From the NCBI GenBank assembly GCA_051294905.1, contig CM119371.1, forward strand, positions 28,646,001 through 28,710,000: 64,000 nucleotides of DNA, given 5' to 3'. The position numbers were made by a program, and so were the translations under genes. Positions 18,516 to 52,200 of this stretch are shown piece after piece; the first letter of the stretch is position 1, and each line of letters starts with the position of its first letter. The DNA comes from Botryllus schlosseri (taxonomy: Eukaryota). The notes beneath the pieces are model-generated. The model searched no databases and was not told the origin of the DNA. It saw nothing but the letters and a program-made list of their open reading frames with translations.

Positions 18516-20137
18516 TCCTCCAGATAAAACGTAACCCATCATTGATAAATTAATGGCGAGGTCAATTTCATAAAAATGATAGCATCTGAGCAATGGATTC
18601 AAAAATTGACAGTCGCAGAACAGACTTCCAAAGAGAGATGGCAACGCGCAAAATAATTAATTTTGACATTTATAATTTTTGTCATGTTCTTGGGAATCTT
18701 TAACTGCTGGTCATGATGAACATTGTTTGATGTCTGGCTGCTATCGAAAAAGCCCCATTCACATCAACTTGCACAGCTTGGTACATGTTTCGTGTGCTGC
18801 AATATATCCAATCGAGGTTATTAGGCTTCTGCAGTGGAAAATGTGTCAAAACTATATTCGTGGCAGATAAATTAATAATGAGTAATCGTACTGGTATTCG
18901 ATTCAGATTAGAGTACCCAGCAATAGTTAACAGGGGGATATGTGTATTTGAGTTGAACTGCTCCAGGACATTAATTATTTATGTGTTAAGTAAAGTTAGA
19001 TGCTTTCAGTTGCTCAGATTTTTATAAATGTGATTTATTATACTTCAGCCTTCTGTGCCTTATCTCACATATGTAATGCAAATTCCCCAGCTGTGTTGTA
19101 CATTTCGGTGGTTACAGTGTGTTTCGAATTTAATTTACCCCGTGCTAATTTATTTCAGTATAATTTACCGAATATAGGAGTGGGTCAGATCATGTCAGGT
19201 GATCCAGAAAAATTTCAAAATGTACCTCCACCATCTCAGATTGTCATTAAAATTGGCATGGTTAGAAAACTTTTACTTCTGCTTTCAAAAAAATAAATTC
19301 CATCGAAATCGGATGAGTAGAACCAAAGATATGGCCGTTTAAAAATTGCTGTTTTTGTGATCACTGAAGCGGAAAAAATGTCAGAAATTTATACATGTAA
19401 TTTGAATTTGCTACAATTCGTTCAAATTAGGGTTGTTGAAGGTAACACTTTCACATTTGTTCATTTATGTCCTGCTTGACACTTTTTCGCCTTCTTTGAC
19501 ACCTGGGGTTGCATAGTCTGACCTTTAACCTCGCTTTTTGTTCGTGTATTTGAAAATCACTCATGCGTGACTTCATTTTTGATTGCAAATATCTCTGGTG
19601 ACCAGGTGATGTCATCAAGTGTAAGGTATCATTGGAAAGCTCTTGACAAGAGCTTTTAAAAGCAAAAATAACATTAGTTACTTTTGAATCGTAACATACC
19701 ATAAGAGCGCCATGAAGCAAGCTTGCAAATTTATTCAAAATCTTCCCCCTTTTCAACAAGAGCAAACTCTGTAAAGCAACTCATTCCACCTTTATTCTAT
19801 ACACAGTACCATGCCAAGTGTTTTATACATAAGGTAGTCAGTATAACTCAGACAGATAATTGCTGACATCAATTATGCTGACAATAATTTGAGATATTTT
19901 TGAAAATTTGAGAAAATTTTGCTACACAGTTTGATGTGACACACAATACTTCACTTCAGAATTCACTACTGAAAGGATAAGATGCGATGTTTTATGTACT
20001 CTACACAATACATTCGGGCAACGATCAGCACTAAACAATGAAAGGAACAATGACAATCAAAATCAATATAAGGTCCTGCGGGTTCATTAGTTTTCATACT
20101 ATTAGATAATAACTATTTGCTCATATCAGATATCTAT

Positions 20138-21772
20138 TTATCTTTGATGATATTTCTTCCAAACTTGTATGACTTTCAGTGCTGATTCCTTTGTCAGTTG
20201 GTATTGTCCCCGATTATTAAATAAACAAGGAACGTCAACTGTGCACAAAATGTGCTGGAACGGTGTCCAGCAAGAATCTTTATTTTGAGGCCAGTGAAAA
20301 AACTCTGATGGGCCTTTTGGGTGCATGAATTCAACTAAGGCATCGTTGTTTGGCTTGTCAATTTCTGTGACCATGCCAATGCACCAGTTTTCATCATAAA
20401 CGCAGCATACAAATTTGTTTATGATAATTTCAATTTGAAGTACATTTTCTTGGTTTGAGTCTTCATCTAATTCAACTTCCAATACATAGTGTTTGTCTTG
20501 ACTGACACGTTTTGCTCCCAGTTTGGTTGATGACAATGGCCTAAAATGATGGAATGCCCGAATACCTTTGACTGTGGTAGCGAGCCGAAATCGCTGTTCC
20601 AAAAAAGCTCTCGTAGCATCCAATTCGTCTTTGAGCAAATTAATAAATTTTATTTTTTGGAGATTTTTCACGCAAGAGGACATCATTTCTTCCACGTTCA
20701 AAAGCTGACCATTCAGTTGGCGTCTCAGACTTTCCATTGCTGTAGCTCGTTTTACAGTGCCACCAATGCCATCACATGGCGATTTACCATGGCTCGAGGC
20801 AAAAAAGGACCACGCAGCATCCACTTCGAAGTCAGCTTTGTGCTTGCACAAATTGTAAAATGATTTTCTGTTTTTGTACTGGGCAGCGCAACCATCGCTA
20901 AAATATTCCACATTGTCCAAGTTGTGAATTGTACTTTTGAGAACTTCAATTGTCTTTTGCTGAATCAGATACACCATTACTGCATCGTGCAACAACTCTT
21001 CCGATAAAAAGCATATATTTAAATGCAAAGTATTGTTGCTTGCAGACTTGTAGTAGCAAACTACCGGGTGCACAGTGCAGCATTGGTGAGTCCAATGATA
21101 CCCTTGCGCTTCATCTTGAATGTGGAAAGAATAATTTTCCGCAAAATCCATTAATACAAGAGCTGTTTGCTGATCCATATCTTGTTTTCGTTTTTTCAAA
21201 TATAAAGACTGTGAATGCGAAATGTGATGATGTGGTGCTAAATCTGCAAGCTTTTTTAATATCAACTGAATAAATTCAGTTATGGTTAAGGTTTGAGTTA
21301 TTAGATCAGTTCGGTCAACTGACACCCACTGTTTGAACGAAATAAGTTCATCCACATCCTCAAATTTTGAGTCAAGCAATTCCTGAACGGGTTGAAATCC
21401 GGGACAGTTTGGGTAACGCTGTAGCATGCAGTCTCTATTTTCAATATTGCAGACTGCCAATTGAAGCAAATCTTTATAAGTTTCTTCAATGCGGGCAGCA
21501 TGCAGCAAAAGAACAACATTTTGATGTATGGTACAGACACATACGGCATGTGTTCCAGATGATCCTGCACTAACACACCATTTCGGCCTCAATTCACAAA
21601 ATTTTGTGAATCCAATTTTTGCATCCGGGTTTTGCTGTTTATACAGGGTATGGAATTCTTTCAGAGTACATAAAAGTAGACGTTTTTGTTGATACACATT
21701 CATTTTAATGCTAACTCGGTCCTTCATCCCTGGCATCAACCTGCTATGTTCGTTGTTTTCATAAAATTTCAC
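20138..21772 (-). CDS. Sola2-type DDD transposase, 5'-truncated
   Basis: 544-aa frame with LRPKWC..CVCTIHQN, MDFAENY..Q.YHW, FSDGCAAQYKN, HGKSPCDGIGGTVKR. It starts at GTG directly against the inner edge of the right TIR, so the N-terminus appears deleted. Confidence 0.8.
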   Translation of the reverse strand: MKFYENNEHSRLMPGMKDRVSIKMNVYQQKRLLLCTLKEFHTLYKQQNPDAKIGFTKFCELRPKWCVSAGSSGTHAVCVCTIHQNVVLLLHAARIEETYKDLLQLAVCNIENRDCMLQRYPNCPGFQPVQELLDSKFEDVDELISFKQWVSVDRTDLITQTLTITEFIQLILKKLADLAPHHHISHSQSLYLKKRKQDMDQQTALVLMDFAENYSFHIQDEAQGYHWTHQCCTVHPVVCYYKSASNNTLHLNICFLSEELLHDAVMVYLIQQKTIEVLKSTIHNLDNVEYFSDGCAAQYKNRKSFYNLCKHKADFEVDAAWSFFASSHGKSPCDGIGGTVKRATAMESLRRQLNGQLLNVEEMMSSCVKNLQKIKFINLLKDELDATRAFLEQRFRLATTVKGIRAFHHFRPLSSTKLGAKRVSQDKHYVLEVELDEDSNQENVLQIEIIINKFVCCVYDENWCIGMVTEIDKPNNDALVEFMHPKGPSEFFHWPQNKDSCWTPFQHILCTVDVPCLFNNRGQYQLTKESALKVIQVWKKYHQR

Positions 21773-22185
21773 AACTTTTTAACTGCTCTTGTTGAAAAGG
21801 GGGAGGATTTTGAATAAATTTGCAAGCTAGCTTCATGGCGCTCTTATGGTATGTTACGATTCAAAAGTAACTAATGTTATTTTTGTTTTTAAAAGCTCTT
21901 GTCAAGAGCTTTCCAATGATACCTTACACCTGATGACATCATCTAGTCACCGAAAGATATCTGCAATTGACAATGAAGTCACGCGTGAGTGATTTTCAAA
22001 GACATGAACAAAATCACAAGGTTAAAGGTCAGACTATGCAACTCCAAGTGTCAAAGAAATCGAAAAAGTATCAAGCAGGATATAAATGAACAAGTGTGTA
22101 AGTATCACTCTCAACAACCCTAATTTGACCGAAATATAGCAAATTTAAACTACATGTATAAATTCCCGATATTTTTTCTGCTTAA

Positions 22186-24023
22186 CCGATTGGCGCCGGC
22201 TGCAATTTTCGAAAAATTTTACTTCAATTTTCCAAGTCGAAAAACTGTACCTTAATGGGATTGGAACACGTCAAACAAGGTGTCGTTCGATTCAGAACTT
22301 CAGCGCGCATCCGATTGCGCCACTCAAATCATTTCGAGCACTGTGTCTGGCCACTTATATCAAGAGCAAGCCGAGAATTCGTTGATGAGAAACGTATTAC
22401 ATTTACTGTACTCTTTATAAACCTAAACATGGATATCTGGTGACATAGGCTTCTTGTGAATCATATCGGCGAGGAAATCATGATCATGGAGATGGCTCAG
22501 TCGATCTAATACGCCCTAATATAGCCATCATCCAATAGATACAGTTCTGAGGGTTTGCACAATAAACACGCGCCAGACCGCAGAGTGGATGAGTCATCGG
22601 CGAGTGAGCAAGTGACGCGCGTGTATTTATTTGGTAGCGTAGCCTTCCAGGGCATTTACAAAGCTTATAGAGCACGTAAATGGGTCACTTTAGTATTGAT
22701 AAATGGAGATTGTCAAGACCTAACCATAAGGACAAACCACAAACGCATATCTTACTACTACGTAAGGTTTATGACGTTAGTTGGTAGCACTTCATACAGA
22801 CATGATACACACGTTTGCGGGGAATACACAGCGTGTAGAATTGGTCTTGTTGCGATATATACATCACTATTAGCTGTTAGTCTGATGTAGATATAATCTT
22901 ATGGGCATGTACTCTCCACAGAAACAATCTAAGAATGTCTACTACCGATAAAATTCAGGATATAACACACTATGTTACAGATATTCGTCCCTGCGTTTGA
23001 TACTAGTGTGGTAGTCTGCAGGAATTCTCTTCACGATTTTTAGAAGCGGCCTTGGGGTGACATAGGCATAACTAATGTTGTTTATTTTGGCCTTGAAGGT
23101 GGAGATTGGCTAGTTCTATTGAAAGAGACCTTTCATTACTACAACGAAAGATATATATCGTTATACGACAGCTCTTTGTATGTCCAGATGAACACTTTTG
23201 CGTAGGTATATGCGCTGAGTAATATTGTATTTATTCCGAATTATACTTGACTATTAGCCATTATTTAGAATCGTATAGGCAGCAACTATTCACAGACACG
23301 ATCTATGAAGGTATATCACTATTAGAACTCGATACATATCCCGTTTTGTGACCAGTATTCATCCATCTGCTTGAAGCTGGTACGGTAGGCTGCGAGAATT
23401 CTCTTCCCGGTTTTCAAATGCAACCTTGAGCGATGCAGACATAACTAGTATAGTTGTTTTAGCAAGAAAATCAGAAGCTGACAAGTACTATTCATAGAAA
23501 CAAACTACAACAACTGGCTATGACGAATCAAACCAAATATACGACAGGGTATATGATGGGTATCGGGAACGCGCGTTTCCGCGAAATGATGCGGTCGGCG
23601 GATATCTTTGTCACGCGGCCTATCACATAGATTTATAACACCTTATATGTAACTAATATCAGATACGAAGATATGTGTGAATTGGTATGGACACTAGCTT
23701 TTCACAGAAAGAAACAACTATGCTCTAAGACGGCTAGAACAAAACATACAGTACGTTATCTGAGAGTGGTCAAGGACGCGCGTGTTGCCGAGACAGTGTA
23801 TTTTGCAACATATTTATCTACGGTATTTGATATCCGATTTCGACGTCTTAGATATAATATATACCAAATAATATGGTATCAATGAACTGGCACAAACAAT
23901 ATCTATCCGCAGACATGAACAGCAGCGACCTAGCACGATTAGAACGGGATATATAGTGGTTCTAATACAGTACGCTTCCCTCTAACGGCAATGGGTAAAA
24001 ATACCCACGCCGGCGGGAGACGG
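22186..24023. mobile_element. TTAA-targeting (piggyBac-like) non-autonomous element inserted in the Sola2 right TIR
   Basis: TTAA at 22182-22185 and 24024-24027; imperfect TIR CCGATTGGCGCCGGC / GCCGGCGGGAGACGG; removing it restores the Sola2 TIR. Confidence 0.8.
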
Positions 24024-25649
24024 TTAAGCGATCACAAAAATAGCAATTTTTGGACGGTCGTAGCTTCGGTTCAAGATGACCTTTTTTGATGAAATATGAT
24101 TTTCTGAAATCAGAAAACACACCTCTGTAAGGCAGCCTATCTTCATGACAATCCAAGATGGTGGAAATATGGCCTGTATCACCTGACATGATCTGACCCG
24201 AGTTGTAATTGGCTGATAAACCGAAATTGAGCCTAATGTTCTCCGCGTTTGGCTCCAACTTGAGGTGCTATGTCATTGTATTACCTTAGTCCAATTTTGC
24301 TAGGTTTGTGCTGAAATGAACCTGATATCTATAAGAATAGGACGTGCTCTATTTCTGTCCAATTGAGTAATACACTAAGCCCGATTTGTCAGCAAGCTCT
24401 AGACACAAATCCTCCTGACTGAACACTGTACATTGAGTGTCGCTACCGCACGCCTACTTACCGTAACTTAACCGCAGTGGTGTGTAAGACATAATTTCTA
24501 CTGACAACAATATAACGCTCGCACAGCCGCGGCAGCTGGAGTGGAGCGGCCCCTCTCCAAAATTCATTCAATTGAAGCTCCATTACGGTGGCTTTCTGAG
24601 GAAAATGGCGGTTTTATCTCAATCTGCGCTCCAATTTGAGACCAGAGCGCAGTGCCTTTTAAAACGAGTTGCAAGCTACTTTTATGCAGCCTTGCACATT
24701 GCCTGTTGCATTTTTACTTGAAATAATTTGAAGGCAGACCAGGAACTCTATGCATCATGCCAGAAGATATTCTAAATGACCATACATTCTCAATTTCTGA
24801 GTAAGTTTGAGTCATATGGTGTTATCTAATTTTAATAGTGAAAAGCCCTCAACCTCAACCAATTGAGCAATGGCGCCAAGCGGGTTTCTGTGAAAAATTT
24901 TGCTTCGCTTTACAAAACTTGAAAACAAGACATGAATGGAATTCGAAACCAGCAAGTAATATATCGTTGGACGCAGAATGTCAACACGTAACCAACAATG
25001 CCACAAAGCGAGATTAAGAAAATAGGAAAACCCTGTTAAAGAAATGTCCAAGTGTTGGTTACTTCCTTATACAGTCCACTACGTATACGTAGTGTGGATA
25101 AGTATGTGCTGTTCACTGCGACAGAGATGACATCTTTTGAACCAGACATGAGTGACCGCTTCTGCCCAACTTATGCGCTACTATCAAAATACTGAAGCGT
25201 CTCACCGAAAACCGCAGTCTGACTTGTGGGTAAGCGTAGCGTAACGTTGTACTACGCATCTACATTTTGATGACGTTGATAGAAAGCTGCTTATCAATTA
25301 AGAACATGGGAGCTATGACATTGTTTTTAATTTGAATTTGCAATCGTGAATGTCACTTCCAAGGCAGTTTTTTCTCGGCGTAGTTCAGGAAGACAACCTA
25401 TTTTCGAATGCTGCACTGTCCTATAAGCGTCACCATGTCTGCCATTCTCTTTGATCAATCAAGGTATCGTGCAATCCAAGATTTCGAAGCAGGCGATGCC
25501 GGCTAGATCGAATTTGCGAATGGTGTTATTCGCTGGCGCCCCAGCAACTCAGATTTTGGGATTTTGAAAAGATGGTGGCACGAGCCCTTAGCCCTGGATA
25601 CCCCACTGTCTTGACCTCTCAAAGACATGTGTATGCTGCCACGAGAATA

Positions 25650-26352
25650 CTGTAATTTTCCAAGTATAGTACGCCCCTATGTAAAATACGCATCCTTAAA
25701 ATAGCATGTAATATCTGTGAAAAAGCCTGTACCCGAGTATGGTGCGCACCCTGCAGTCGCGGTACATGAATAGCTGTGTTTTAGTATATGATGTCTGCTT
25801 TACGATGGCACTGCTCAACAATCATGACATAACTATCGCTAATCATTATGCAATTAATGGTATCGTCTCTAAACGATAGTAGAGAGCAACCAAAGCCTGC
25901 AAGGCTGGCGACGCGACATCTTGCGCACTAGGGCAGATGCGATTGCTAAGGTCAGCGGTTATGTCGTGCACACACGCCTGTTGGAAGTGCGACTGATTAC
26001 GGAAGCGATTGGATTTTTCGCAAATGGCCTGTCATTGAAGCGATGAATTAGCAAGAATTGCGCGCGCGTGCGCAGCAATCAATGAATGAACTAATTCCGC
26101 TCGCAAGCAAAAGGCAAACCAACTCAACAGGAGATTGCTAATTGGCAGCGCGCTACACTGATAATACGAATTACTGGGTACGATGGCTGAAAGTGATACA
26201 CGATTAGAAACAAACATGAAGAAAGGTGTGATTTCAAGTTTTTTATCGAGGGAGAATTTTTTAAGCGTGTTGTTCCCATGTATAATACGCACCCCCATAT
26301 TTTAGAACAAAAAATCGTGAAAATTTTGCGCGTAATACATGGAAAATTACGG
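25650..26352. mobile_element. Tc1/mariner-pogo-type MITE (TA TSD)
   Basis: TA|CTGTAATTTTCCA...TGGAAAATTACGG|TA; paralogous site near 51993 is empty with a single TA. Confidence 0.85.
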
Positions 26353-26559
26353 TAATTATTCTGGCCATCATAAAACTTCCGAACAAGTTGCTGCAATATT
26401 GATAAATTAAGTACAAAATTAAAGGTTACTTGTCAAAGAGCCATATCTTATACTCAAAAGAGCCATAGGTTCCCGACCACTGCCATATGGTTTGTTCAAA
26501 CCTGTTTTGATGACATTGTTACAATTACACGCTCCGTGTTTCAAAGCGTTACGTGACAC

Positions 26560-27281
26560 GCTTCCAAATCCCAAATTTGTAAAACGAGTCAATCAGTGCT
26601 TGTGATTAAATGATGAACGGGGAACGGGAGGACACGTGTCAAAAAAGGAAAGATTTGGGCCGTCGGCCGAAATTCCAAGAAGGTCCGGAGCACTAAATCT
26701 TCGTTAACTGGATTCAGGGGCGAATTTGTTCTTTTAGTTTGTGGCTTGCAGGTTGCTGTGGAGTATAATTTAAGTCGTTATTACGGCAAAAACACGAAGG
26801 CAGACACTCGGCTAAAACACCAAGCGAATTGCGGAAGCACTTCTAGTTTCCATCAACAACAAGGCTATTTCGCCTGGACACTAGGGCTGTTCAAAAATAA
26901 CTTTTTTTTTGGATTCCTGCCATTCAGTCATTAAATTGTCAGATTATCCTAAAAAAAGGCTGCAAACCAAATTTGGTTCAATTCTAACAAGTATCAGGCT
27001 CCGCAGATCTGTTTGTCTGTCTTTGGGTTGAAAAGGGTTTAAAATGTATCATGTTAACCATATTTTCCATTATGACTGCAATACAATATTATTCATTGTT
27101 GGTAAATTGTCTATTTCTCATTGCCTTCCACCCCGAGCAGCATGTATTAACAATGTAACTACTTTCAATTTACAAATACAATTAATACGTTGCATAATAT
27201 AGTTTAAAATTTTTACTTGGCCCACCAACGTATTTTCTGATTCTCATTTAACCTGCATGGAAAAATAATTGCCCATCCCTG
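26560..27281 (+). mobile_element. Decayed Buster/Charlie-like hAT remnant (N-terminal zinc-finger region), in both duplicated blocks
   Basis: Paralog ORF 52252..52503 reads K.KV....R....W...LFT...G..V.LVCGEQVAAEYNV.RYY, like the GTF2IRD2/SPIN-type N-terminus; ends ...TTGCCCATCCCTG at ~27281. Confidence 0.5.
26882..27010 (+). mobile_element. Truncated fragment of the 5461-6079 MITE family
   Basis: TAGGGCTGTTCAAAAATAACTTTTTT at 26882; not present in the paralogous block. Confidence 0.7.
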
Positions 27282-27661
27282 GTCTATATGGACTATTATT
27301 CCCGGAGCAATTTTTCTATTGATGTATTTGATGTATGGCAGGGGTTCTTAACACGGTGCCCGCACATAATTGTTTTGTGGCCAATAATTTGGACAATTTT
27401 ACATGCGAAGTTGAGAACATCTGTTGTATGATATACTGGTACGACAATTGAGCAGACGACTATCTAATAAAGTTCTTCCTTTAATTTAGTTTCACACTTT
27501 CATACATGTTAGGTAGTATAATACTATCATCGAGCCAAGTTATATGTGCCTAATTTAGTTGGTATAATTTGTGCCGAACACATTGGACTACAAGGACTTC
27601 GAACTCCGCGTAAAGAGTTTCCTGGAGTCAAATATTTCAATTTTTGACCACCTCAAGCTTC

Positions 27662-29194
27662 ATGGATATGAATGGCATCAAATATCATGAATGTGATATA
27701 CGCGGGAAAGAAATCCGCGGCAAAAGTCTTTTTAAGCGTCATATGGATGGGCATTCCGACATCAGAAATCATGAGTGCGATATATGTGGGAAAGAATTCC
27801 ACCGCAAAGATCATTTCAAGCGTCATATGGATGGACATTCCGACATCAAAAATCATAAGTGCGATATATGTGGGAAAGGATTCCACCGCCAAGATCACTT
27901 CAAGTCTCATATGGATTCACATGCTGACATCAGAAATCATAAGTGTGATATATGTGGGATAGAATACCGTTGCATACAAAACCTCAAGCGTCACATGAAT
28001 AAACATGCCGGCTTCAGATATCATAATTGTGAAATATGTGATAAAGCATTTATTCAGGAGCATCAAATCAAGTGTCACATGGATATACATACTGGCTTCG
28101 AAAATCATGAATGTGAGATATGTGGGAAAGAATTCCGTCATAAAAGTGACTTCAAATGTCATATGGATGTACATGCTGGAATCAAAACTCATGGGTGTGA
28201 TATATGTGGGAAAGAATTCCGTACAAAAATACACCTGAAGTATCATATAGATGTACATGCTGGCATCAGAAATTATAAGTGTGATATATGTGATAAAGCA
28301 TTCAGTATGAAGCAACAACTCAAGCGTCACATGGATGTACATGCTGGCATCAGAAATTATAAGTGTGATATATGTGATAAAGCATTCAGTACGAAGCATC
28401 AACTCAAGGGTCACATGGATTTACATGCTGGCATCAAAAATCATGAGTGTGATATTTGCGGGAAAGAATTCCATACGAAAAGTTATCTCAAGCGTCATAT
28501 GGATATACATGCTGGCATCAGAAATCTTAAGTGTGATATATGCGGGAAGGACTTCTGTGAGAAAAGTGAACTCAAGCGTCACATGGATGTACATGCTGGC
28601 ATCAAAAATCATAAGTGTGCTATATGCGGGAAAGAATTTTATGAGAAAAGTGTTTTTGAATGTCATGTAAATGTACATGCCGGCATCAAAAATCTTAAAT
28701 GTGATATATGTGATAAAGCGTTTAGTCAGAAGAACCTACTTGAGGTTCACATGGAAATACATTTTGACTTCAACAATCATAAATGCAAAATTTGTGGGAA
28801 AGAAGTCTGCCAGAAAAAAAATTTCGATCGTCATATGAGTTTACATGCTGGCATCAGAACTTATAAGTGTGATATATGTGGTAAAACACTGAGTCGAAAG
28901 AGTTACCTCAATCTTCATATGGTTATGCATGCTGACTTCAAACAACAAAAATGTGATATTTGTGGGAAAATATTCACTCAGGAAAATTACCTCAAGACTC
29001 ATGTGACGATACATGCTGATATCAAAGATCACAATTGTGAAATATGTGGGAAATCATTTACTTTGAACCGGTACCTCAAGAGTCATATGAATGTTCACGT
29101 TGGCATCAAAAATCACAAATGTGATATATGCGGGAAATTATTTACGCGAATAATTGGCCTCAAGGCTCATTTAAATATACATGCTCGCATCTGA
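27662..29194 (+). CDS. Tandem C2H2 zinc-finger protein, copy 1 (18 fingers, first degenerate), prematurely truncated
   Basis: 28-aa CxxC-x12-HxxxH repeats with HAGIRN-type linkers; first ATG at 27662; TGA at 29192-29194 where the paralog has AGA. Confidence 0.88.
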   Translation: MDMNGIKYHECDIRGKEIRGKSLFKRHMDGHSDIRNHECDICGKEFHRKDHFKRHMDGHSDIKNHKCDICGKGFHRQDHFKSHMDSHADIRNHKCDICGIEYRCIQNLKRHMNKHAGFRYHNCEICDKAFIQEHQIKCHMDIHTGFENHECEICGKEFRHKSDFKCHMDVHAGIKTHGCDICGKEFRTKIHLKYHIDVHAGIRNYKCDICDKAFSMKQQLKRHMDVHAGIRNYKCDICDKAFSTKHQLKGHMDLHAGIKNHECDICGKEFHTKSYLKRHMDIHAGIRNLKCDICGKDFCEKSELKRHMDVHAGIKNHKCAICGKEFYEKSVFECHVNVHAGIKNLKCDICDKAFSQKNLLEVHMEIHFDFNNHKCKICGKEVCQKKNFDRHMSLHAGIRTYKCDICGKTLSRKSYLNLHMVMHADFKQQKCDICGKIFTQENYLKTHVTIHADIKDHNCEICGKSFTLNRYLKSHMNVHVGIKNHKCDICGKLFTRIIGLKAHLNIHARI

Positions 29195-29900: not shown

Positions 29901-30469
29901 TGTTCAGGTACAATTGCCCTTGACATGAATCTTGCTAGCCCGAATGCATTTACTCAGGAAATTGAACAAAATTTTCATGCCGAAATCAATCCGAAAATTT
30001 TCGGCTGATTACCAAATATGATGTCACCGGCATGATCATTTCTTCTATACACCAACCAAGTTTGTGTAAACAACAGGAGTTCGTGTATCATTTAAAGATA
30101 TTACATTGTACTCAAACAAACTGTTTGCCTCGACTTTATTGTACTAGTGTCTTCAAGATTCACATGAATATGCAATTATGCATGCTGGCATCAATATCAT
30201 TATTGTGCGTTGCATTTTCTCCGTATTGCGCGACATGTTGATATACATGCACAATGATAAATGTTGTGTAAGGGGGAAAGGATTCTATTGTCAATGACCA
30301 TGAATGTAAGCTTTGTGACAAAAATAAAATTGAAGTGAAAATTTCGTTTCGTTGCTGTTATTTCATGGATTATCCGTTAATTTCAAGTATGTCAATATTA
30401 TCTCAATTTTCTTTGAATAAATTTTGTTGTCGGAATATTTCTTGATGAAAATCATTTTCTTGCATCGTT

Positions 30470-40100: not shown

Positions 40101-41784
40101 GCGCTTCCGTGTCGTCCATGTTCCTAGCAAGCTCATTCCTGCGTCTGATGCATTTTCCAGGCACCCTGCTCCCTTGACTCCAGTGGAGGACATGCCATTG
40201 GACCACTGCGACAGTATAGTAGCTGCCCATGAGGACACCAATCTGATTGAAATCAGCATCGTGGCCGCCTCCCGAGCATCATTGAATGCCATTGAAGTTG
40301 TCTCCTGGGACGATGTAAAGCGTAGTACCGCATACGATCCTATCCTCAGTGAGTTGAAAAATCACATCATCTCAGGATTCCCCGACAAATCGGACAAACT
40401 GCCTTTTCAACTACAATCATATTGGCGGTACCGCGACAACCTATCGATCGTAGATGATGTTGTCATGTATAATGACCGGATCGTCGTTCCCCCGCCGCTG
40501 CGAGGGGTTATTTGTGAAATCTTACACTCGGCACACCAAGGGACTGCTGCCATGTCACAGAGGGCACAGGCCACAGTATTTTGGCCTGGGATGACTGAGT
40601 GTATAGCACGTACACGAGCACGTTGTGACAACTGCAGTAAAATGGCACCGAGTCAAGCATACATGCCTCCGGCCGAGCCATTCATACCGACCTACCCTTT
40701 CCAAGCTGTTGCTGCTGATTATTGCACCGCCGCAGGCCACCACTATTTAGTCGTTGTTGACCGCTTCAGCAACTGGCCAGCGATATTCCATGTGAAGCAT
40801 GGTGGGCAAACGTCTGGAGCCCTCGGACTCCAAGATGCATTACGAAGTTACTTCGGCACGTTTGGAGTGGCCGAAGAACTTAGCAGTGACGGGGGACCCG
40901 AATTTGCTGCGCACAGCACTCGGGAATTTTTTCGAAAATGGGGGGTGCGCCACAGGCTCTCGTCGGCTTACCACTCCCGGTCAAATGGCCGTGCGGAGGC
41001 CGCGGTGAAATCGATGAAACGACTCCTTCTCGGCAACATTTCGCAGGGTGGCAGCATTCGGACCGATGCAATTACTCGGGCGTTGCTACAGTTTCGCAAT
41101 TGCCCCGACCCCGCGAACGGACTCTCCCCTGCAGAAATAGTATTTGGCAGGACTTTGAAAGACGCGCTGCCGATCAAAGCATGGGTCCCAGTTTTCACCC
41201 AGCGCAATATAAGGCCATTATGGAGAAACCTCTGGCGGAGTCGCGAGCACACGTTGCGTACCAGATTTGCGAAGCAGCTGGAATCTCTGTCGTTGAACAC
41301 TAAGCCATTATCACAGCTTCTTGAAGGTGATGTCTGTCGCATTCAAAACCAAAACGGTCGTTATCCCCTTCGCTGGGACAGAACCGGCACTGTGGTTCAG
41401 TGCCGGGACCATGACCAGTACCTCGTGAAAGTGGACGGTTCCGGCAGATTGACGCTGCGTAACAGGAAATTTCTGCGCAAGATTGAGCCGTACTTCTCGA
41501 ACCAGAAGCACCAATCTTTTCAGCCAACGGTCTCGTCTCCCGGCACAGCTACGCCTCCTCAAGTCGTTTCGCCACCCGCTCGAAATGGGCAGTCAAATGA
41601 GGTAGACCCTGGCGTGCTGCGATCCGCCGAATCGAGTGCAGGAGATCATCTACCAGTTGAAGTACCGATCGACGACACTAGTGTTGCAGCACCGCCTAAT
41701 GAGAGACGCCAGCGCTCTGGCAGAAATGTTACTCCTCCAGTATGGCACAAGGACTATGTTATTGGGGCACAAATTTTATGTTGA
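37174..41784 (+). CDS. Gag-Pol polyprotein (Gag, aspartic protease, RT, RNase H, integrase) in a single frame
   Basis: 1536 aa; protease ISDTGA; RT DAWN.YH, PQG, CVDD; RNase H DWS..E..TDHKPL; integrase HSAH..CDNC, ADY, SDGG, E; PR-RT-RH-IN order. Confidence 0.96.
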   Translation: MPKLSCPIQDCEYETESEDAAGAAAQLRIHATIHTTGHPVSRSRPPVMERPIISRGSTAEEWQIFLRKWDDFKKGTEIPDNLIKSHLWQCCEITLSNDLFKQVGDFNQVSEGDMLKAIESLAVVKIATSMRTVALFSAQQDQGQSFSAFLAEVKSSARICSFQMTCTKHDCTQVNDFSDRIVKHIVIAGLADDEVQRQVLGVANLDAKSLDETVQIIENKELALRATSFQTRNQHDSSVAASSLIGTPSPDLSQVVQCSKCGNVMKKYKFLHGKFGKPRLREFKQCLACWRKSKQSETPSTGTASSIDIASVSNRTNSTVESRASEVILDHHIFDGTYGWLLKDCKAQPTIDLLVSTRQADYAQFNIQRPKISPKKIKAISDTGAQSSLMGLKLFRACGFKDQHLIPVKKRLVAANDECIHILGAVFLRLSGAAVSGDVIETAEMVYITDSTKLFYLSRDAMQKLGIIGPDFPQIGAAALHATQESTLEGNPHQTCSCPRRSTPPPRPQQLPFQPCAENVDKMKQWLLERYASSTFNKCKHSPLPTMTGPPISIHIDPSAKPTAVHTPAPIPLHWKEEIEKQLEADVKLGVIEKVEPNTPTTWCHRAIWVRKADGSPRRVVDFQSLNRFCSRETHHVVAPFKQARSIPPNTYRSVTDAWNRYHSVPVREEDRHLLTFITEFGRYRYRVAPQGYLASGDGYAYRYDSIIADTPRKTKCVDDTVLWDDDLATHWWRMIDYLELMGREGIILNASKFQFCRRHIEFAGFEITAENVRPLPKYLEAIQCFPRPTKIADIRAWFGLVNQVSHYGRLSTIMAPFKPLLSPKTPFCWTSELDDAFANSKLELINAIKDGVRIFDPTRRTCLTPDWSRSGIGYWLRQKHCKCVSLTPDCCDHGWKITLAGSRFLRSAEQRYCSVEGEALGIAWALEDTKFFTLGCDDLIICTDHKPLVKIFGDRSLDEITNTRIFRLKQRTLSWRFRVVHVPSKLIPASDAFSRHPAPLTPVEDMPLDHCDSIVAAHEDTNLIEISIVAASRASLNAIEVVSWDDVKRSTAYDPILSELKNHIISGFPDKSDKLPFQLQSYWRYRDNLSIVDDVVMYNDRIVVPPPLRGVICEILHSAHQGTAAMSQRAQATVFWPGMTECIARTRARCDNCSKMAPSQAYMPPAEPFIPTYPFQAVAADYCTAAGHHYLVVVDRFSNWPAIFHVKHGGQTSGALGLQDALRSYFGTFGVAEELSSDGGPEFAAHSTREFFRKWGVRHRLSSAYHSRSNGRAEAAVKSMKRLLLGNISQGGSIRTDAITRALLQFRNCPDPANGLSPAEIVFGRTLKDALPIKAWVPVFTQRNIRPLWRNLWRSREHTLRTRFAKQLESLSLNTKPLSQLLEGDVCRIQNQNGRYPLRWDRTGTVVQCRDHDQYLVKVDGSGRLTLRNRKFLRKIEPYFSNQKHQSFQPTVSSPGTATPPQVVSPPARNGQSNEVDPGVLRSAESSAGDHLPVEVPIDDTSVAAPPNERRQRSGRNVTPPVWHKDYVIGAQILC

Positions 41785-41871
41785 TTCCCGCTATCGCCAT
41801 TGGAGTATTTGGTTGAACGTTCTCTATACGCGGTATTTTGAACTCCTCACTCAATGCACATTGATTTCGTT

Positions 41872-41886
41872 AGGAGTTGGGGGGGA
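41872..41886 (+). other. Polypurine tract
   Basis: AGGAGTTGGGGGGGA immediately upstream of the 3' LTR. Confidence 0.85.
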
Positions 41887-42123
41887 TGTGTGAATATCTC
41901 TTGCTGCTATCACTCTCTCTCTACTAGTATCCTTAAACGCATGAGCGATCTCGTCTTCTTGTTGTTGTGATTGCGCGACGTGTGTGCATGTATGTATCAG
42001 CACCCACGTCTTGTGAGTTATTGGAGTAATAGGGATTAGGTTAGTCGATGCAACTGTTCTTTTGTATTTCAGTTTGATCATTTATTACGGTATTTAACCT
42101 ATGAATAAATGCAAAGTTGCACA
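41887..42123 (+). repeat. 3' LTR
   Basis: Direct copy of 36912-37148. Confidence 0.96.
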
Positions 42124-44644: not shown

Positions 44645-45074
44645 CAGAGATGAGCATGGATTAGGATTAGGTTTTGAAAAAACAGGATTTGTGAAATTTT
44701 TGTCGGATTTGGATTGGATTTGAATTAGACATTTTTTTTAGAATGGATTAGGATTTGGATTGGATTTACCTATTTTCTGGAAGATTGAAATGTCGTGTGG
44801 CGAATGGCGACAAACTTTTTTCAGATCGGTTAATAATATACTTATAGTTACTAAGTTATCTTGAATCAAGTGAATCGTTGGTTGTGAAAGAAAATTTTCG
44901 AATCCCTCCATTGCATATAAATTGGCATTTTTTCTGAATTTCTAGTTGGAATCGGATTAGGATTGGACATGGACTTGTATACGAAAAAGTTATGGATTAG
45001 GATTTTGATTTTGATTTGAAGGTTCGGATTTGGATTGGATTAGGACGTAGAAATTTCAAATCTGCTCATCTCTG
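44645..45074. mobile_element. MITE, same family as 17199-17620
   Basis: CAGAGATGAGCA / TGCTCATCTCTG; TSD CCTCTCGG at 44637-44644 and 45075-45082. Confidence 0.93.
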
Positions 45075-45082: not shown

Positions 45083-45500
45083 GTATAGTCGTTTCCACAA
45101 CCGGTTCCAGCTTCAGTTCCACATCAGTTACAAGTTTCCGCAGGTGTCTCCGGTTTCTTTTTATAAGCATGCCGGATTCAAGTCGGATGAGGTATCTTCT
45201 TTCGTCATCTGTACCTTGGCCATATAGATATCTTAATGGCCGATTGTTCCGCTCTCGCCTTCTTCCGATCCTTTGGAATCAGCATTTGGGACCCTCTCCT
45301 CTGTTTCCGCGTTTTAGTGTCCGTTGTACGCCGTCTCCGCTTTTCCGTCTTTTAGGGATCCCCATAACAATAACAATGCCTTGGCTGTTGGCTTGTTGTA
45401 GCGTTGAAATCGTCATCAGATTGCAGACAATCCAGACATCGACGTACTGTACCCGTACCGGGCGACCGTAGCATTATGGAGGACATCCTCTATAGTAGCA
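45083..45500 (-). pseudogene. Possible decayed LINE ORF1 fragment (partly duplicated at ~16765-17040)
   Basis: Minus strand reads IVIVMGIP...RIGRRRERNNRPLR with stops, reminiscent of CR1/L2 ORF1; same strand as and upstream of the RT relic. Confidence 0.4.
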
Positions 45501-47472
45501 TACATCACCTTGATTTTTTTCTGATGCAACCTGTCTGTTCTGCCTAGTGCAGTCTAACATTATACTACAATTGGTATATAACTATGTATAGTAAGTAAGG
45601 GCGTAGTGATATCTTTAGACCTCGGTAGTCGGTACAGTGGTGATTGACCAATGACCATTGACCATCCATCGATAGGACGTCCTCGTGCGACATTGGGACG
45701 CCGTTTTCTCATAATGGCTAATACGGTTGGACTCATTTCTGGATATTATGCATATTTTGAACATATATTATCATACGAACTTACTGTAAAGCGGCGTTAC
45801 TTTGGACGTGAGGTGAGGTAGCTTTGCACTAAGCATGAGCAGTGAGCAGTAAAACATTTAGGCCTAATAATGCCAATGATTATAGGTTTTTGATGGTAAA
45901 GTATTCCCGCTGAAGGAGGTCCAATGCTTTTTCATGAGGCAACGGTAAAGTAGGCTAGTCTCAAAAAAAGTTAATTTCCTACAGGGTTGGTGTGATTGCG
46001 TGCAAACTCATTCACGACATGACATGCAAAATATGGTCATTCACGACATGACTTGTAAAATAAGGTCTGGTCTACTTTCCTACCCACAATGAAAAGTGTT
46101 ACCAATGACTACCACTTATCAGTGTTCCCTATGAATATGTCTAAATGTAAAGTGTTTCACCATTTCATCACCTGTCCTTCCACTACACTAGATGTTAGCT
46201 TATATCAATAAAGATTAATATTATAGAGATATTTTATAGATATGGGTGAAAAACCTATGGTGCAATTAACCATGCAAATAAAAACGTGTGGTAGGCTATT
46301 ACCAAGGTAAGAATCATGTACCCCAGATGACAGAGGCTACACGTTTTTAATTACAGACATGTAAAGTGTAATGACCATAATCCCAGCCATAAGGACCCTC
46401 ACCCTTACCATAAACAGTAAACACGCTAACCTTCAACCCCAACATTATGGTGACTGGCCTTATTTTGGATGTCGCGACCTTATGTTGCATGCATGTGACT
46501 GACCTTGTTTTGCATGTTGCGACTGACCATATTTTCCATGCAATCGCACCAACCCTCCTCCAGATAAAACTTTACCTATCATTGATAAATTAATGGCGAT
46601 GTCAATTTCATAGAAATGATAGCATCTGAGCGGTGGATTCAAAAATTGACAGTCGCAGAACAGACTTCCAAATAGAGATGGCAACGCGCAAAATAATTAA
46701 TTTTGACATATATAATTTTTGTCATGTTCTTGGGAATAAATAGCTGGTTCGTGGAACAGACCGTATGTCCGAATACTTCATAGTTTGTTATTGTTGCCAT
46801 TGTTACGATGCGAATTTCATGGTCTGTGATTTTGACTGTTACGTCATACTTTGCCTTTTTGGTTTTGCTTTTAAATCTGTTTAAATCCCTTTAGTGTGCC
46901 GTTAACTCTTGAAAAGAGGCACCCGAAAAGTCTTCGAGTTCAATAAATATTATTTTACAATGGATATTGTATTGAAAGCTATGTTCTTGGGAATCTTTTA
47001 TTGCTGGTCATGGTGAACATTGTTTGATGTCTGGCTGCTATCGAAGAAGCCCCATTCACATCAACTTGCACAGCTTGGTACATGTTTCGTGTGCTGCAAT
47101 ATATCCAATCGAGGTTATCAGGCTTCTGCAGTGGAAAATGTGTTTTATATTTCTGGTAGATAAATTAATAATGATTAATGGTACTGGTATTCGATTCAGA
47201 TTAGAGTACCCAGCAGTAATTAACAGAGTGATATCTGTATTTGAGTTGAACTGCTCCAGGACATTGATTTTTTATGTGTTGAGTAAAGTTAGATGCTTTC
47301 AGTTGCTCAGATTTTTATAAATGTGATTTATACTTTAGCCTACTGTGCCTTATCTCACATATGCAATGCAAATTCCCCAGCTGTGTTGTACATTTCGGTG
47401 GTTACAGTGTGTTTCGAATTTAATTTACCCCGTGCTAATGTATTTCAGTATAATTTACCGAATATAGGAGTT

Positions 47473-49288
47473 GAGTAATTCCCTGTCAACATGCAAATGT
47501 TTTTTAAATCCGTCTCCACACCCTCTCAGATTTTTCTCTAAATTTATATATAACTAAAGCATCTAGTTCTGAGTACAACGAAATTTATTTCGGACAATTT
47601 CGTTGAACGGCTCCTGAGTTATTGCAGTTTGAAAAATGATGATTTTGTGATTACGCAACCATGAAATTTGGCAACACAAAACCTGTGTATGATTGTAACT
47701 GATATAGCTCAGAGGTTACGTATAGTTAAGGTTTGAATGTTATTTAGCAATAATTGTTGGTACATGTTCTTCACTTACCACGAATTTCCCCGCTCCACAG
47801 TACTGGGTCAGGATTCAAAACGCGATTTCAAAATTGGCATATGTTAAAATCGGTGATTTTCAACTCATCTGGTGCAATTCTATTTAAACCAAAATTCACA
47901 AGCAAGGTGTCATTTGAAAGCTGTTTTTAACTAGAATGCACAAAACCTAGTTTTATTATTGATATTTGACAGCAACATGGTTAAAAATATAATATGGTGC
48001 ATAATGCAAAATAGGTCATTTTTTAATTAATTTTAATTATATTAATTCAGTGATTATCTGATTTTGCCATTATGCTACTCCTTATATGATAATGTGTTTC
48101 AGTAGATAGCCTAATTATTGCCATACTCAGAGAGTACTTTTATTTATTACACGTGCATTATACTTGCAAGGGTGCTTCTGGGTTTACCGACTGTCAGTAA
48201 TTCAAGTCAACATCCAAATAATATTTCAATTCGTCTTCACACCCTCTCAGATTTCTCTGCAATATCATGCACAACTAAAGTACTCAATTTTGAGTAGAAT
48301 AGAATTTAATTAATATAACTTTATTGATCGGTTCTTGAGCAATTGCAGTATGAAGAATGAGGATTTCGTGCTTACTCAACCATGAAATTTGCGTATAATT
48401 ATAACTGCTAAAATCATTACTTATACAGGCTGCAGGTAGTAATGCTGGTAAGCAATGACTGGTGGTACATGTTCTTCACTCACTAGGAATTCCCCTCCGC
48501 ATTACAGAATCAAGGTTCAAATCTTGATTTGAAAATTGACATACCAGTATGTTAAAATCAGTGATGCGTGACGATATTTCTGAACTCTCTGGCACGACTC
48601 TATCTAACTCAAAATTCATAAGTAAGGTGTCATATGAAAGCTGTTACCAATTAGAATCCATCAGAATTGGTTATGAATTGAATATAAGACAGGAACACGG
48701 TTAAAAATATACTTTGACACATTATGCAGAACACATCATGCACTATTTAGAGCACATCTTTTCAATGAAGTTTTAGACAAGTGGCAGTCAAATGTCACAT
48801 GCAATACCAATTCAGCAACGTTCTACTCTTTCCAAGCTTCCATTTGACACCTTCCTCGAAAAAATCGGTTTAAATAGAATTACGCTAGGCAGAGTTGCAT
48901 ATTTATTACGCATGGCTGATTTTGAAAACATGATGACTTTGAATTGACATTTGACCCCTAACCCCCATTAGTAAAGTTGAAAATTTAGGTCTATCACAAT
49001 AAGCATATACCAAAATATCTTACTACAGAAATTTAAGTCTGCCCGGCAGCAATTTGATCACTATAATGTTAATTACAATTAGACACAGGTTCCAAGCGGT
49101 ATAGCGTCACAGCCGAGTGAGCACAAAATGTCATTTTTCAAATTGCAATAACTCTGTAACGAATTGTCCGATTTTCTTGAAACAAAATTTGTTATGCACC
49201 AAATTTAATGCCTGATCGATGTGAAAATTTTCAATTTGATCTGAGATGGTGTGGAGACGGGCGTTTGCATGTTGAGAGGGAATTACTC
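47473..49288. mobile_element. Non-autonomous Sola2-like element (GAG termini)
   Basis: GAGTAATTCCCT(G/C)TCAACATGCAAA at both ends; 4-bp TSD AGTT at 47469-47472 and 49289-49292; subterminal CACC(A/C)TCTCAGAT and AAGGT.TCAT.(T/G)GAAAGC motifs shared with 19182-24199. Confidence 0.85.
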
Positions 49289-52200
49289 AGTTGTAATGGA
49301 CTGATAAACCGAAATTGAGCCTAATGTTCTCCGCATTTGGCTCCAACTTGAGGTGCTATGTCATTGTATTACCTTAGTCTCATTTTGCTAGGTTTGTGCT
49401 GAAATGAACCTGATATCTTCTGCACGATGTCTATAATGGTCATTGGTCAAGCAGTGTCCAATTACGATGAGCCATAGTTGATGCAAGAAATATTTTTCAG
49501 ATGTTACATCAGTAGGCTACTTCTCATTCTGAAAAGGCAAAACTTGATCTTTAAACATTGCAGCAAAACCAGGCTATAATCAAAATGAGCCTAGCCAGAT
49601 GAGCCAATGGTGTGCTGTACTAGTGTTGTTCAAAATTTTTACTTCAAATTTTAGTGGCTGTCCGATGGAATTGTTAGGTTGCCTAAAATCACAATGGTTA
49701 ACAAATTTGGTTCCATTCCTACTGGCAGAAGCGAAGTTATTGCAGTACAGACCATTTTGGATATGTGTTTGGATAGTATTTACTGTGTAAAATTCTACCA
49801 TTGTGCTATGCCGAAAAATTGTTACTCAGTGTGTGTGAACGGGAAGTAGCCTACCGTAATGCTTATTTGTGTATGTCTTGATCTTTATAATCGCCCATAC
49901 GCCCGAATATTGCCATTATATTTAAAATGAATTTGATACCAATTCTGTAATAAGAAGTAGATTTTATCGAAAGAAAAGTCACAGCAACATTGTTATTAGC
50001 CAATAGTAAATCAGTACCTACTTACAACTTGTTAAAACCACCCACTCAATTTTGAAAGAAATGCAACTTTGCTCTAAGCTAGATTCTATGATGCCATCGG
50101 ATGCCGCCAGCGGTCCGTGGACATATGAGCATGTGACACTTCATCATGCGACAATTGGGCATGCGACACCTGAGCATGTGGGAAAAGGTTCAAGTTAGGG
50201 ACGGGCAAGGCGTAGATTGAGGATTGGGTTAGGCTTGGGTTTGGGTCGTTTTAGGTTAGGTTTTTTTCATTGTGTCACATACTCATACGGTATGTCGGCC
50301 AACTTGTACTGTTGGATTTCGTCAAATACTGTTTGAAAAGATTTCTCAGGTTTTGCATGTTATTGGTCTTGAAGGGACACTGTGCTCTAAAAATGATGTG
50401 GTCTCAGATTGAAGCACGGATTGAAAAATTTATTTTTTGACCGCAGCTGTTTTCTTCAGAAAGCCAATGTAATGGAGCTGCAATTGCATGAATGTTGGTT
50501 AAGAGCCGTTCCACTCTGGCTGCCGCGGCTTCCCATTGCAAAATTTCGGGCGATTAGGCAGTCACACAGAGAATGAACTTTAGATATTTGTCAGCCGATA
50601 TTATGAAGGAACTATTTGATGGTGAATTGGTGATGATCATGTTTATATAAAAGAACAGGACGTGATCTATTTCTGTCCAATTGAGTAATACACTAGGTCC
50701 GATTTGTAAGCAAGCTCTAGACACAAATCCTCCTGACTGAACATCTTTCGTTGAGTGTCGCTACCGCACGCCTACTTGCCTACTTACCGTAACTTAACCA
50801 CCGTGGTGTGTAAGACATAATTCGTACTGACAACAATCCAACGCTCGCGCGGCAGCTGGAGTGGAGCGGCCCTTATCCAAAATTCATTAAATTGAAGCTT
50901 CATTACGGTGACTTTCAAGAAAATGGCGAAGGCCAAAAATTTTGTTCAGTCTACGCTTCAATTTGAGACCAGAGCGGAGTGCCTCTTAAAACGAGTTGCA
51001 AGCTACTTTTATGCAGCTTGGCACATTGCTTGTTGCATTTTTACTTGGAATAAGTTGAAGGTAGCCTATACCACGAACTCTATATATCATGCCAGGAAAT
51101 ATTCTAAATGACCATACATTCCCAATTTCCGAGTAAGTTTTGAGTCGTATGGTGTTATCTAATTTTAATAGTCTAAAGCCCTCAACCAATTAGGCACCGG
51201 CGCCCGGCGGGTTTCTGCGAAAAATTTTGCTTCACTTTACAAAACTTGAAAACAAGACATGAATGGGATTAGAAATCAACAAGTAATATATCGTTGGACG
51301 CAGAATGTCAACACCTAACCAACTACGCCACAGAGCGAGACACCGCGTGTATATATAATTGAGAAAATAGGAAAACCTTGTTAAAGAAATGGACAAGTGT
51401 TGGTTACTTCCTTATAGAGTCCACTACGTATACCTAGTGTGAATAAGTATGTGCTGTTCACTGCGACAGAGATGATATCTTTCGAACCAGACATGAGTGC
51501 CGCTTTTGCTCAACTTATGCGCTACTATCAAAACACTGAAGCGTCTCACCGAAAACCGCAGTGTGACTCGTGGCTAAGCGTAGCGTAATGTTGTGCTACG
51601 CATATACATTTTGACGACGTTGATAGAAAGCTACTAATCAATTAAGAACATGGGAGCTATGACATTGTTTTTAATTTGAATTTGCAATCGTGAATGTCAC
51701 TTCCAAGGCAGTTTTTTTCTCGGCGTAGTTCAGGAAGACAACCTGTTTTCGAAGACTGCACTGTCCTACAAGCGTCACCATGTCTGCTATTGTCTTTGAT
51801 CAACCAAAGTATCGTGCAGTCCTAGATTTCGAAGCAGGCGATGCCGGGTAGATCGAATTTGCGAATGGCGTTAAGTCGCTTGCGCCCCAGCGACTTAGAT
51901 TTGAGGATTTTGAAAAGAGGGGACACGAGCCCTTAGCCCTGGATACCGAACAGTCTTGACCTCTCGAAGACATGTTTATGCTGCCTCGAGAGTAATAATT
52001 ATGGCCGGCATGAAACTTACTAACAAGTTCCTGCAATATTGATAAATTGAGTACAAAATTGAAGACTTGTCAAACAGCCATATCTTATATTCAAAAGAAC
52101 CGTATATGGCTCACAAGACATAGGTTCCTGACTGCTGCCATTTAGCTCCGTTCAAACCTTCTTTGTTGCCACTGTCACGTTTACACACTCCGTGCTTCAA

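What the first reader, a model, noticed from the sequence alone, without database searches (positions are those of the whole stretch)
19178..49292. Two different Sola2-like elements inserted 1 bp apart at the paralogous site
Seen: the ancestral site is AATATAGGAGTTGTAAT. Copy 1 holds a 5.0-kb GGG-terminated element with TSD GAGT (19182-24199). Copy 2 holds a 1.8-kb GAG-terminated element with different TIRs and TSD AGTT (47473-49288). They share subterminal motifs but are distinct families. Inference: two independent hits within 1 bp in a ~10-kb duplicated unit imply strong target-site specificity or a structural hotspot, possibly within another repeat.
Basis: partly seen in the sequence, partly recalled or inferred. 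Interest (0 to 1): 0.72.

Follow-up and report, generated by a model that had tools for sequence, protein, structure and literature searches.

The report
Two Sola2-type transposons one base apart
Two related jumping genes sit one base apart at the same spot in two copies of a duplicated DNA stretch, and the spot is empty in other sequenced chromosomes; they likely landed there separately through a mild target preference plus chance, a pattern already known for other transposons.

Summary
In detail: a GGG-ended element (TSD GAGT) and a GAG-ended element (TSD AGTT) lie 1 bp apart at the matching site. They are independent insertions. Flanks differ by 4-5%, the element ends by about 40%, and contigs of runs X1 and X5 cross the site empty. 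The 5.0-kb element is really a 3.2-kb Sola2 deletion derivative with a 1.84-kb TTAA-flanked element nested in its right TIR. Strong site specificity is not supported. Other copies' flanks are unrelated, the flank is low-depth rather than a repeat, and no hairpin, palindrome or RNA gene was found. Twenty-nine Sola2 ends from other organisms show only a weak, cross-validated AT-phased preference; AGTT ranks in the top 1-4% of local sites, GAGT is average. Chance per such tract is about 0.1-0.8%. Best reading: weak preference, an insertion-rich patch and chance, like the parallel insertion sites of carrot Stowaways. The scan noted a similar two-LINE coincidence in another genome, nothing on this DNA. 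In vivo hotspot strength remains untested.

The parts
18684..19181 (.). Left flank of copy 1, ending in TSD GAGT (19178-19181)
   Evidence: 24 mismatches in 491 columns to 46981-47471
19182..24199 (.). E1, composite: 3,176-bp Sola2 deletion derivative plus nested insert
   Evidence: 22-bp identical ends and 4-bp TSD; structure
19182..19764 (.). E1 left long TIR (583 bp)
   Evidence: 487 of 572 columns identical to the right TIR once the nested insert is left out
20138..21778 (-). 5'-truncated Sola2 transposase frame, 546 aa
   Evidence: 62% identical to residues 315-851 of 856-aa P0001; DFAENY, SDG and HGKSPCDG motifs as in the Sola2 alignment of PMC3627910 file S10 (compared by eye)
21784..22181 (.). 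Inner part of E1 right TIR
   Evidence: 90% inverted match to 19369-19764
22186..24023 (.). Nested 1,838-bp non-coding element, TTAA at 22182-22185 and 24024-24027, termini CCG..CGG; piggyBac-like by TSD
   Evidence: borders; depth about 980-1,430 against 186-452 over the transposase in X1; longest ORF within it 121 aa
24028..24199 (.). Outer part of E1 right TIR
   Evidence: about 69-73% to the left end
24200..24330 (.). TSD GAGT (24200-24203) and right flank of copy 1
   Evidence: 5 mismatches in 130 columns to 49289-49418
46981..47472 (.). Left flank of copy 2, ending in TSD AGTT (47469-47472)
   Evidence: X1 contig with 0 differences over 47294-47473 runs on into the right flank
47473..49288 (.). 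E2, 1,816-bp non-autonomous Sola2-like element
   Evidence: ends 24 of 25 identical, 69% over about 177 bp; no ORF of 100 aa or more; multi-copy by depth and other flanks
48196..48739 (.). Degenerate second copy of E2's left end
   Evidence: 70% direct match to 47474-48019
49289..49418 (.). TSD AGTT (49289-49292) and right flank of copy 2
27614..29194 (+). C2H2-type zinc-finger repeat frame of copy 1 (context; label read from the translation)
   Evidence: 73-83% to the copy-2 array
53190..55538 (+). C2H2-type zinc-finger repeat frame of copy 2 (context; label read from the translation)

Best explanation
E1 and E2 are separate insertions of two related Sola2-type families into a low-copy site that is empty in other sequenced chromosomes, and their 1-bp offset likely reflects a weak AT-phased target preference, an insertion-rich patch and chance. 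Shown: TIRs, 4-bp TSDs, E1's truncated Sola2 transposase, homologous ends, empty contigs, multi-copy families, and a weak preference among Sola2 relatives (A/T-rich in the TSD and 8-12 bp from the element end). Inferred: a Sola2 transposase supplied in trans made a 4-nt staggered strand transfer in each case. E2 took the AGTT register, a good match to the preference. E1 took the neighbouring, average GAGT register on another flank lineage. A TTAA-specific element interrupts E1's right TIR. The two flank lineages differ about as much as two types within one run, so they were probably allele-like before standing in tandem.
For: Independence: flank divergence 24/491, 5/130 and 42/1076 against 120/197 identity of the element ends. 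E1 contigs differ from the window by 0.3-1.2% in the 8 closest listed pieces (2/397, 4/343, 1/383, 3/280, 4/346, 3/339, 5/740, 4/500; more distant pieces at 7-12% are also listed). Empty site: X1 record 4 (231 letters, 180 laid with 0 differences, 51 loose) and X5 record 11 (308 letters, 210 laid, 98 loose); the loose 30-letter consensus matches the right flank at 28 and 29 of 30, counted by eye. No long consensus: three single E2-family flanks match the site's 30-nt flank at 7, 10 and 13 of 30 by eye; 29 relatives' flanks reach 7-16 of 30 at best. Weak preference: A/T 90 of 116 at -4..-1 and 115 of 145 at -12..-8 against 0.64; leave-one-locus-out rank 0.67-0.76, p 0.002 or less in 6 of 6 models; AGTT in the top 0.8-4.4% by four-letter models. 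Insertion-rich patch: copy 2 has two more private inserts about 490 bp upstream and 130 bp downstream. Chance 0.09-0.14% for one Sola2 pair and 0.5-0.8% counting 2x3 inserts over 2.1-3.5 kb. Precedent: 292 of 18,518 carrot Stowaway sites are parallel sites (PMC6881990, passages).
Against: The preference does not explain E1: GAGT ranks only in the top 26-68% (four-letter) or 16-60% (W/S). Predicted enrichment of a 1-bp-offset coincidence is 0.4-0.6 with four-letter and 1.2-3.0 with W/S models, fitted in sample. Most of the coincidence is therefore left to chance at about 1 in 300 to 1 in 1,000 per tract. The model comes from other organisms' families. Only 5 E2-family flanks (4 rows, 5 rows hidden) and no E1-family flank were seen. 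The number of eligible tracts in the scan is not known.
Confidence: 0.65

Rival explanations
1. The site is a strong in vivo hotspot set by chromatin or DNA shape (for example an accessible, bendable spot near a zinc-finger gene's promoter), used by Sola2 transposases with 1-bp register wobble.
For: Two related families at one spot; AGTT is a top 1-4% site; four private inserts within about 620 bp of ancestral sequence across the two copies. Promoter-near hotspots are reported for P (PMC5932611, passages) and Mu (PMC2774946, passages).
Against: No hairpin (fold rank 151-195 of 173-195 windows), no palindromy (16-100% of positions as good), average A/T. The contigs that cross the site in X1 and X5 are empty, and no third insertion is listed.
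Confidence: 0.2
2. Site memory or homologue-guided targeting: an element resident on one flank lineage, or its excision site, drew a related transpososome to the matching position on the other.
For: Related ends in the same orientation (left-left z 9.4, left-right z 3.9). The two flank types look allele-like: X5 holds two types (depths 50, 47.7) that mix copy-1 and copy-2 letters.
Against: No excision footprint at either site; copy 2's closest relative in X1 is empty with 0 differences over 180 bp; the target does not resemble the element ends (39-100% of background windows score as well). Gap-repair replacement would keep the TSD (recalled).
Confidence: 0.07
3. Strict sequence-specific targeting, or targeting of a repeat or RNA gene.
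For: The coincidence itself.
Against: Different registers; unrelated flanks; low-depth flank; 0 Rfam matches at E 1 on either flank and 0 tRNAs in the window.
Confidence: 0.03
4. One insertion before the duplication, later diverged or replaced in one copy.
For: The ends are homologous.
Against: Each element has its own self-matching TIRs and its own TSD; ends about 40% apart against 4-5% for flanks; no internal similarity above shuffles (229 and 235 against 188-231, 5 shuffles); empty contigs exist.
Confidence: 0.02

Closest known systems
Parallel insertion sites (PIS) of carrot DcSto Stowaway MITEs (PMC6881990; passages read)
   Same: Different families of one superfamily at one position, with empty variants segregating; families with more similar ends co-occur more often there.
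   Different: PIS are at exactly the same base in different genomes and have a fixed TA target; here the offset is 1 bp, the TSD is a variable 4-mer, and both copies stand in one assembly.
Sola2 DNA transposons (PMC3627910 passages and part 1 of 2 of file S10; original description not held)
   Same: Transposase motifs, 4-bp TSD; GRG..CYC termini (recalled).
   Different: E1 lacks about 315 N-terminal codons and carries a nested element; E2 has no ORF and starts GAG where all 29 relatives' ends found start GGG (the search was seeded on GGG ends); neither TSD is AWWT.
Double insertion at preferred sites, P-element dimers (PMC5932611; passages read)
   Same: Repeated use of a site through target preference.
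   Different: There both elements sit in tandem on one chromosome around one shared TSD; here they are alternatives on two copies.
Near-parallel retroposon insertions (PMC4494050; search listing only)
   Same: Independent insertions a few bases apart at a homologous locus.
   Different: Retroposons, not cut-and-paste DNA transposons.

Membership tests
Sola2 (E1) | Transposase similar to Sola2 transposases | tested here: met
   Motifs match the published Sola2 alignment by eye; D211 and D336 invariant, D295 at least 90% conserved in 34 homologues; no Pfam match, as reported for Sola (PMC5751038, passages)
Sola2 (E1, E2) | 4-bp TSD | tested here: met
   GAGT and AGTT; two E2-family flanks end in A before the first G, so the TSD is not a 2-bp GT; 4 distinct relatives with 4-bp TSDs GTTA, AAAG, ATTT, TGAA
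Sola2 (E1, E2) | GRG..CYC termini (recalled; source paper not held) | tested here: met
   GGG..CCC and GAG..CTC; under a matrix built only from relatives E1's ends rank 1-2 in the window and E2's left end 5th, E2's right end scores 10.4 and is not in the top 8
Sola2 (E1, E2) | AWWT-type TSD as reported for amoebozoan Sola2 (a preference, not shown to be defining) | tested here: not met
   GAGT and AGTT are not AWWT
Sola2 (E2) | Repbase rule for non-autonomous elements: same TSD length and terminal 11 bases with at most 1 mismatch (PMC4455052, section 5 read) | tested here: not met
   By eye: 5 of 11 against E1, at best 9 of 11 against held relatives (L029, L045). E2 is therefore called Sola2-like, on end homology (z 9.4)
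Sola2 (E2) | Own transposase | not testable with these tools
   No ORF of 100 aa or more and no tblastn hit below E 0.7 from 120 homologues; its autonomous partner was not found
Parallel insertion site (PMC6881990) | Different elements at exactly the same position | tested here: not met
   1-bp offset; works like a PIS but is near-parallel
Parallel insertion site (PMC6881990) | Empty variant exists | tested here: met
   Bridging contigs in 2 of 3 runs laid; X6 has no cover there
Target-specific DNA transposons such as Dada (recalled) | Copies share one target sequence, in an RNA gene or repeat | tested here: not met
   Unrelated flanks, low-depth site; no RNA family or tRNA
piggyBac (nested insert) | TTAA TSD, termini not RR..YY as in Kolobok (PMC9587614, passages) | tested here: met
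   TTAA on both sides, CCG..CGG
piggyBac (nested insert) | piggyBac transposase or match to a classified family | not testable with these tools
   No long ORF; no transposon library on hand; label stays piggyBac-like

The most novel reading that the evidence does not exclude
Sola2 transpososomes are steered to a position already used by a related element on the paired homologous copy (homologue-guided or site-memory targeting), landing within 1 bp of it.
Probability: 0.07. Interest if true: 0.75.

Novelty: new member of a known kind. Interest (0 to 1): 0.3.

Why it matters
As read here it is a clean example of near-parallel insertion by a little-studied superfamily, and a warning that presence/absence scoring would merge two events. 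The by-product is a first rough Sola2 target profile (A/T-rich TSD and A/T-rich band 8-12 bp out). I found no paper on Sola target preference in the held library (0 papers; searches listed none by title or abstract start), but the original Sola paper and Repbase reports could not be read. If the site proved to be a repeatedly used hotspot, or homologue-guided, Sola2 target choice would become directly testable at a defined locus.

Tried and rejected
No genome is held, so no genome-wide flank logo. The first lay (17600-27700) was swamped by high-copy repeats at 24340-27035: 260 joints and 1,880 loose ends were hidden, and no E1 flank or E1-site joint was shown. RNA run X23 gave too little depth on the flank to say whether the site is intronic or exonic; no RNA holder was listed. 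X6 has no cover at the site. E1's 22-bp end: 0 matches in metagenome contigs. Transposase in viral contigs: none. Blind TIR/TSD searches were dominated by palindromes inside long TIRs and were replaced by a terminus matrix. Of 48 ends in 37 of 92 loci, 19 were dropped (12 duplicate flanks, 4 short flanks, 3 tandem ends in L090). The same-site enrichment figures (3-187) are overfitted and not used. Hairpin, palindrome, A/T excess and end mimicry at the target: none. A 2-bp GT TSD parse for E2 was rejected. Reading copy 2's left junction as an E1 excision footprint was rejected, because those letters are part of E2's self-matching TIR. Earlier-finding look-ups by sequence and by 'Sola' in this genome returned nothing.

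Full report
Observation. The window holds two related segments, about 16766-30474 and 45206-56217, each ending in a zinc-finger repeat frame. At the matching point copy 1 carries E1 (19182-24199; ends identical for 22 bp; TSD GAGT) and copy 2 carries E2 (47473-49288; ends 24 of 25 identical; TSD AGTT), one base to the right. The flanks differ at 24 of 491 columns on the left, 5 of 130 on the right and 42 of 1,076 further left. Divergence rises to 8%, 15% and 16% towards the zinc-finger arrays.

Anatomy of E1. The minus strand has a 546-aa frame (20138-21778) with 1,134 homologues among 5,460 candidates. It matches residues 315-851 of an 856-aa relative at 62%, and none of 120 homologues finds the missing N-terminal part in the window. 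Its DFAENY, SDG and HGKSPCDG motifs match the Sola2 alignment in file S10 of PMC3627910 (part 1 of 2 read, compared by eye). The stretch 22186-24023 is flanked by TTAA on both sides; leaving it out restores a 574-bp right TIR that matches the 583-bp left TIR at 487 of 572 columns. Summed contig depth over that stretch is about 980-1,430 in X1 against 186-452 over the transposase, which fits a separate family, although such depth is no copy number. E1 proper is thus 3,176 bp with a nested 1,838-bp piggyBac-like element (TTAA TSD, termini not RR..YY as in Kolobok; PMC9587614 passages).

Anatomy of E2. It has no ORF of 100 aa or more, inverted ends 69% alike over about 177 bp, and a decayed second copy of its left end at 48196-48739. 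Its left 200 bp align to E1's left 200 bp at 120 of 197 columns (z 9.4; 0 of 300 dinucleotide shuffles), while the interiors score like shuffles. It fails the strict Repbase 11-base rule (PMC4455052 section 5): 5 of 11 against E1 and at best 9 of 11 against relatives, counted by eye. I call it Sola2-like.

Independence. Each element has its own self-matching ends and TSD, and the ends are about ten times more diverged than the flanks. The eight closest listed E1 contig pieces differ from the window by 0.3-1.2% (pieces at 7-12% are listed too). The closest listed E2 pieces differ by about 3% (2/65, 2/60, 3/107, 3/82). Laying 47150-47600 on three runs, contigs of X1 (231 letters, 0 differences over 180, 51 loose) and X5 (308 letters, 98 loose) pass straight into the right flank; X6 has no cover. 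X1 holds both window flank types letter for letter (0 differences to copy 2; 8 of 8 copy-1 letters) plus a third type. It may not be independent of the window, so X5 is the independent witness. X5 shows two flank types at depths 50 and 47.7 that mix copy-1 and copy-2 letters, so copy 1 and copy 2 differ here about as much as two types in one run. I infer an allele-like, probably copy-number-variable tract; a haplotype-merging assembly is less likely given three types in X1, but is not excluded. No listed contig bridges either occupied junction; contigs drop rare variants, and 5 loose-end rows and 56 pieces were hidden.

Target specificity. The flank is not a repeat: one contig per run covers 47326-47453 (13.6 in X1, 82.2 in X5) against 442-2,396 and 1,928-16,295 inside E2. 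Five other E2-family junction contigs appear in four rows. Three single ones end in CTTA, AATT and ATTA and match the site's 30-nt flank at 7, 13 and 10 of 30 by eye; the two pooled ones agree at 0.6. No Rfam match (E 1) lies on either flank and no tRNA in the window. The empty site has no hairpin, palindromy, A/T excess or likeness to the element ends.

What Sola2 relatives prefer. An alignment of 34 transposases fetched 80 metagenome loci (best 80 of 285) and 12 genome loci. A terminus matrix seeded on three relatives found 48 ends in 37 of 92 loci; 29 remained after dropping 12 duplicates, 4 short flanks and 3 tandem ends. Four distinct elements have both ends and 4-bp TSDs (GTTA, AAAG, ATTT, TGAA); two other paired loci, L001 and L005, show none. 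Flanks are A/T-rich at -4..-1 (90 of 116) and -12..-8 (115 of 145) against 0.64; the bands were chosen after seeing the table. Leaving out one locus at a time, true flanks rank 0.67-0.76 among decoys (p 0.002 or less in 6 of 6 models). E2's register ranks in the top 0.8-4.4% of the local tract by four-letter models and 3-14% by W/S models. E1's register is average (26-68% and 16-60%). Predicted enrichment for a 1-bp offset is 0.4-0.6 or 1.2-3.0. A real but weak preference makes E2's site a good one and says little about E1's.

Chance. For one Sola2 pair over 2,137-3,460 alignable bases the chance of lying within 1 bp is 0.09-0.14%; counting two inserts in one copy and three in the other it is 0.5-0.8%. 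Copy 2 has further private inserts at 46738-46980 and 49419-50643, so the patch takes insertions often. In a scan of this size such coincidences should turn up (inference; the number of eligible tracts is unknown).

Mechanism. Shown: ends, TSDs, truncated transposase, nested insert, empty contigs, weak preference in relatives. Inferred: two cut-and-paste events by Sola2-type transposases acting in trans, each with a 4-nt stagger, on two flank lineages; E2 at the favoured register and E1 one base off. I give this 0.65, a strong chromatin or shape hotspot 0.2, homologue-guided targeting 0.07, strict specificity 0.03 and a single ancestral insertion 0.02.

Comparison with what is known. Carrot Stowaways show different families at exactly the same base at 292 of 18,518 sites, more often when their ends are similar (PMC6881990, passages). 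P-element dimers arise by double insertion at preferred sites (PMC5932611, passages), and Mu has genic hotspots (PMC2774946, passages). This case works like a parallel insertion site but is offset by 1 bp. Searches listed no paper on Sola target choice; the original Sola description was not held, so the GRG..CYC rule is recalled and a published target profile may exist.

Verdict. Real, two independent insertions, a new instance of a known phenomenon. Interest 0.3.

Noticed in passing
window 17199-17620, 45651-45665 and 44645-45074: A MITE with an 8-bp TSD (hAT-like, label recalled) sits at 17199-17620 in copy 1. Copy 2 lacks it there but shows the TSD plus 7 repeated bases, like an excision footprint, and carries a 95% identical MITE about 580 bp upstream with a different 8-bp TSD: likely excision and a local hop.
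   Followed up: partly
window 22186-24023: Abundant non-coding TTAA-flanked element with weak TIRs and an internal 65% direct repeat (22752-23083 / 23136-23459); no match in the 92 loci.
   Followed up: partly
window 46738-46980 (related copy at 5127-5352): 243-bp insert private to copy 2 with a target duplication of about 15 bp; retroposon-like.
   Followed up: no
window 49419-50643: 1.2-kb insert private to copy 2, 130 bp from E2, without obvious TIRs.
   Followed up: no
window 25650-26352: About 700-bp insert private to copy 1 inside a high-copy repeat; many contigs skip it (joints).
   Followed up: no
window 36911-42123: LTR retrotransposon with 100% identical 238-bp LTRs and one 1,540-aa frame with RT, RNase H and integrase matches; noted before as e1-7804060.
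   Followed up: no
window 16766-30474 vs 45206-56217: Identity falls in steps from 96% at the 5' end to 73-83% in the zinc-finger arrays, and X1 shows three flank types where X5 shows two; suggests a recent conversion or copy-number-variable 5' tract.
   Followed up: partly
L025:4446-8759 and L088:5819-9818: Two of the four complete Sola2 relatives are inserted inside minisatellite arrays.
   Followed up: no
L081-L092: Sola2-like transposases in 12 contigs of bacterial MAGs, several with the same terminal motif; likely animal DNA binned into the MAGs.
   Followed up: no
L002, L031-L033, L044, L046, L079: Ends 69-72% identical to E1's first 190-210 bp, and a 70% identical transposase in L002/L003: close relatives of the E1 family in other records.
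   Followed up: no
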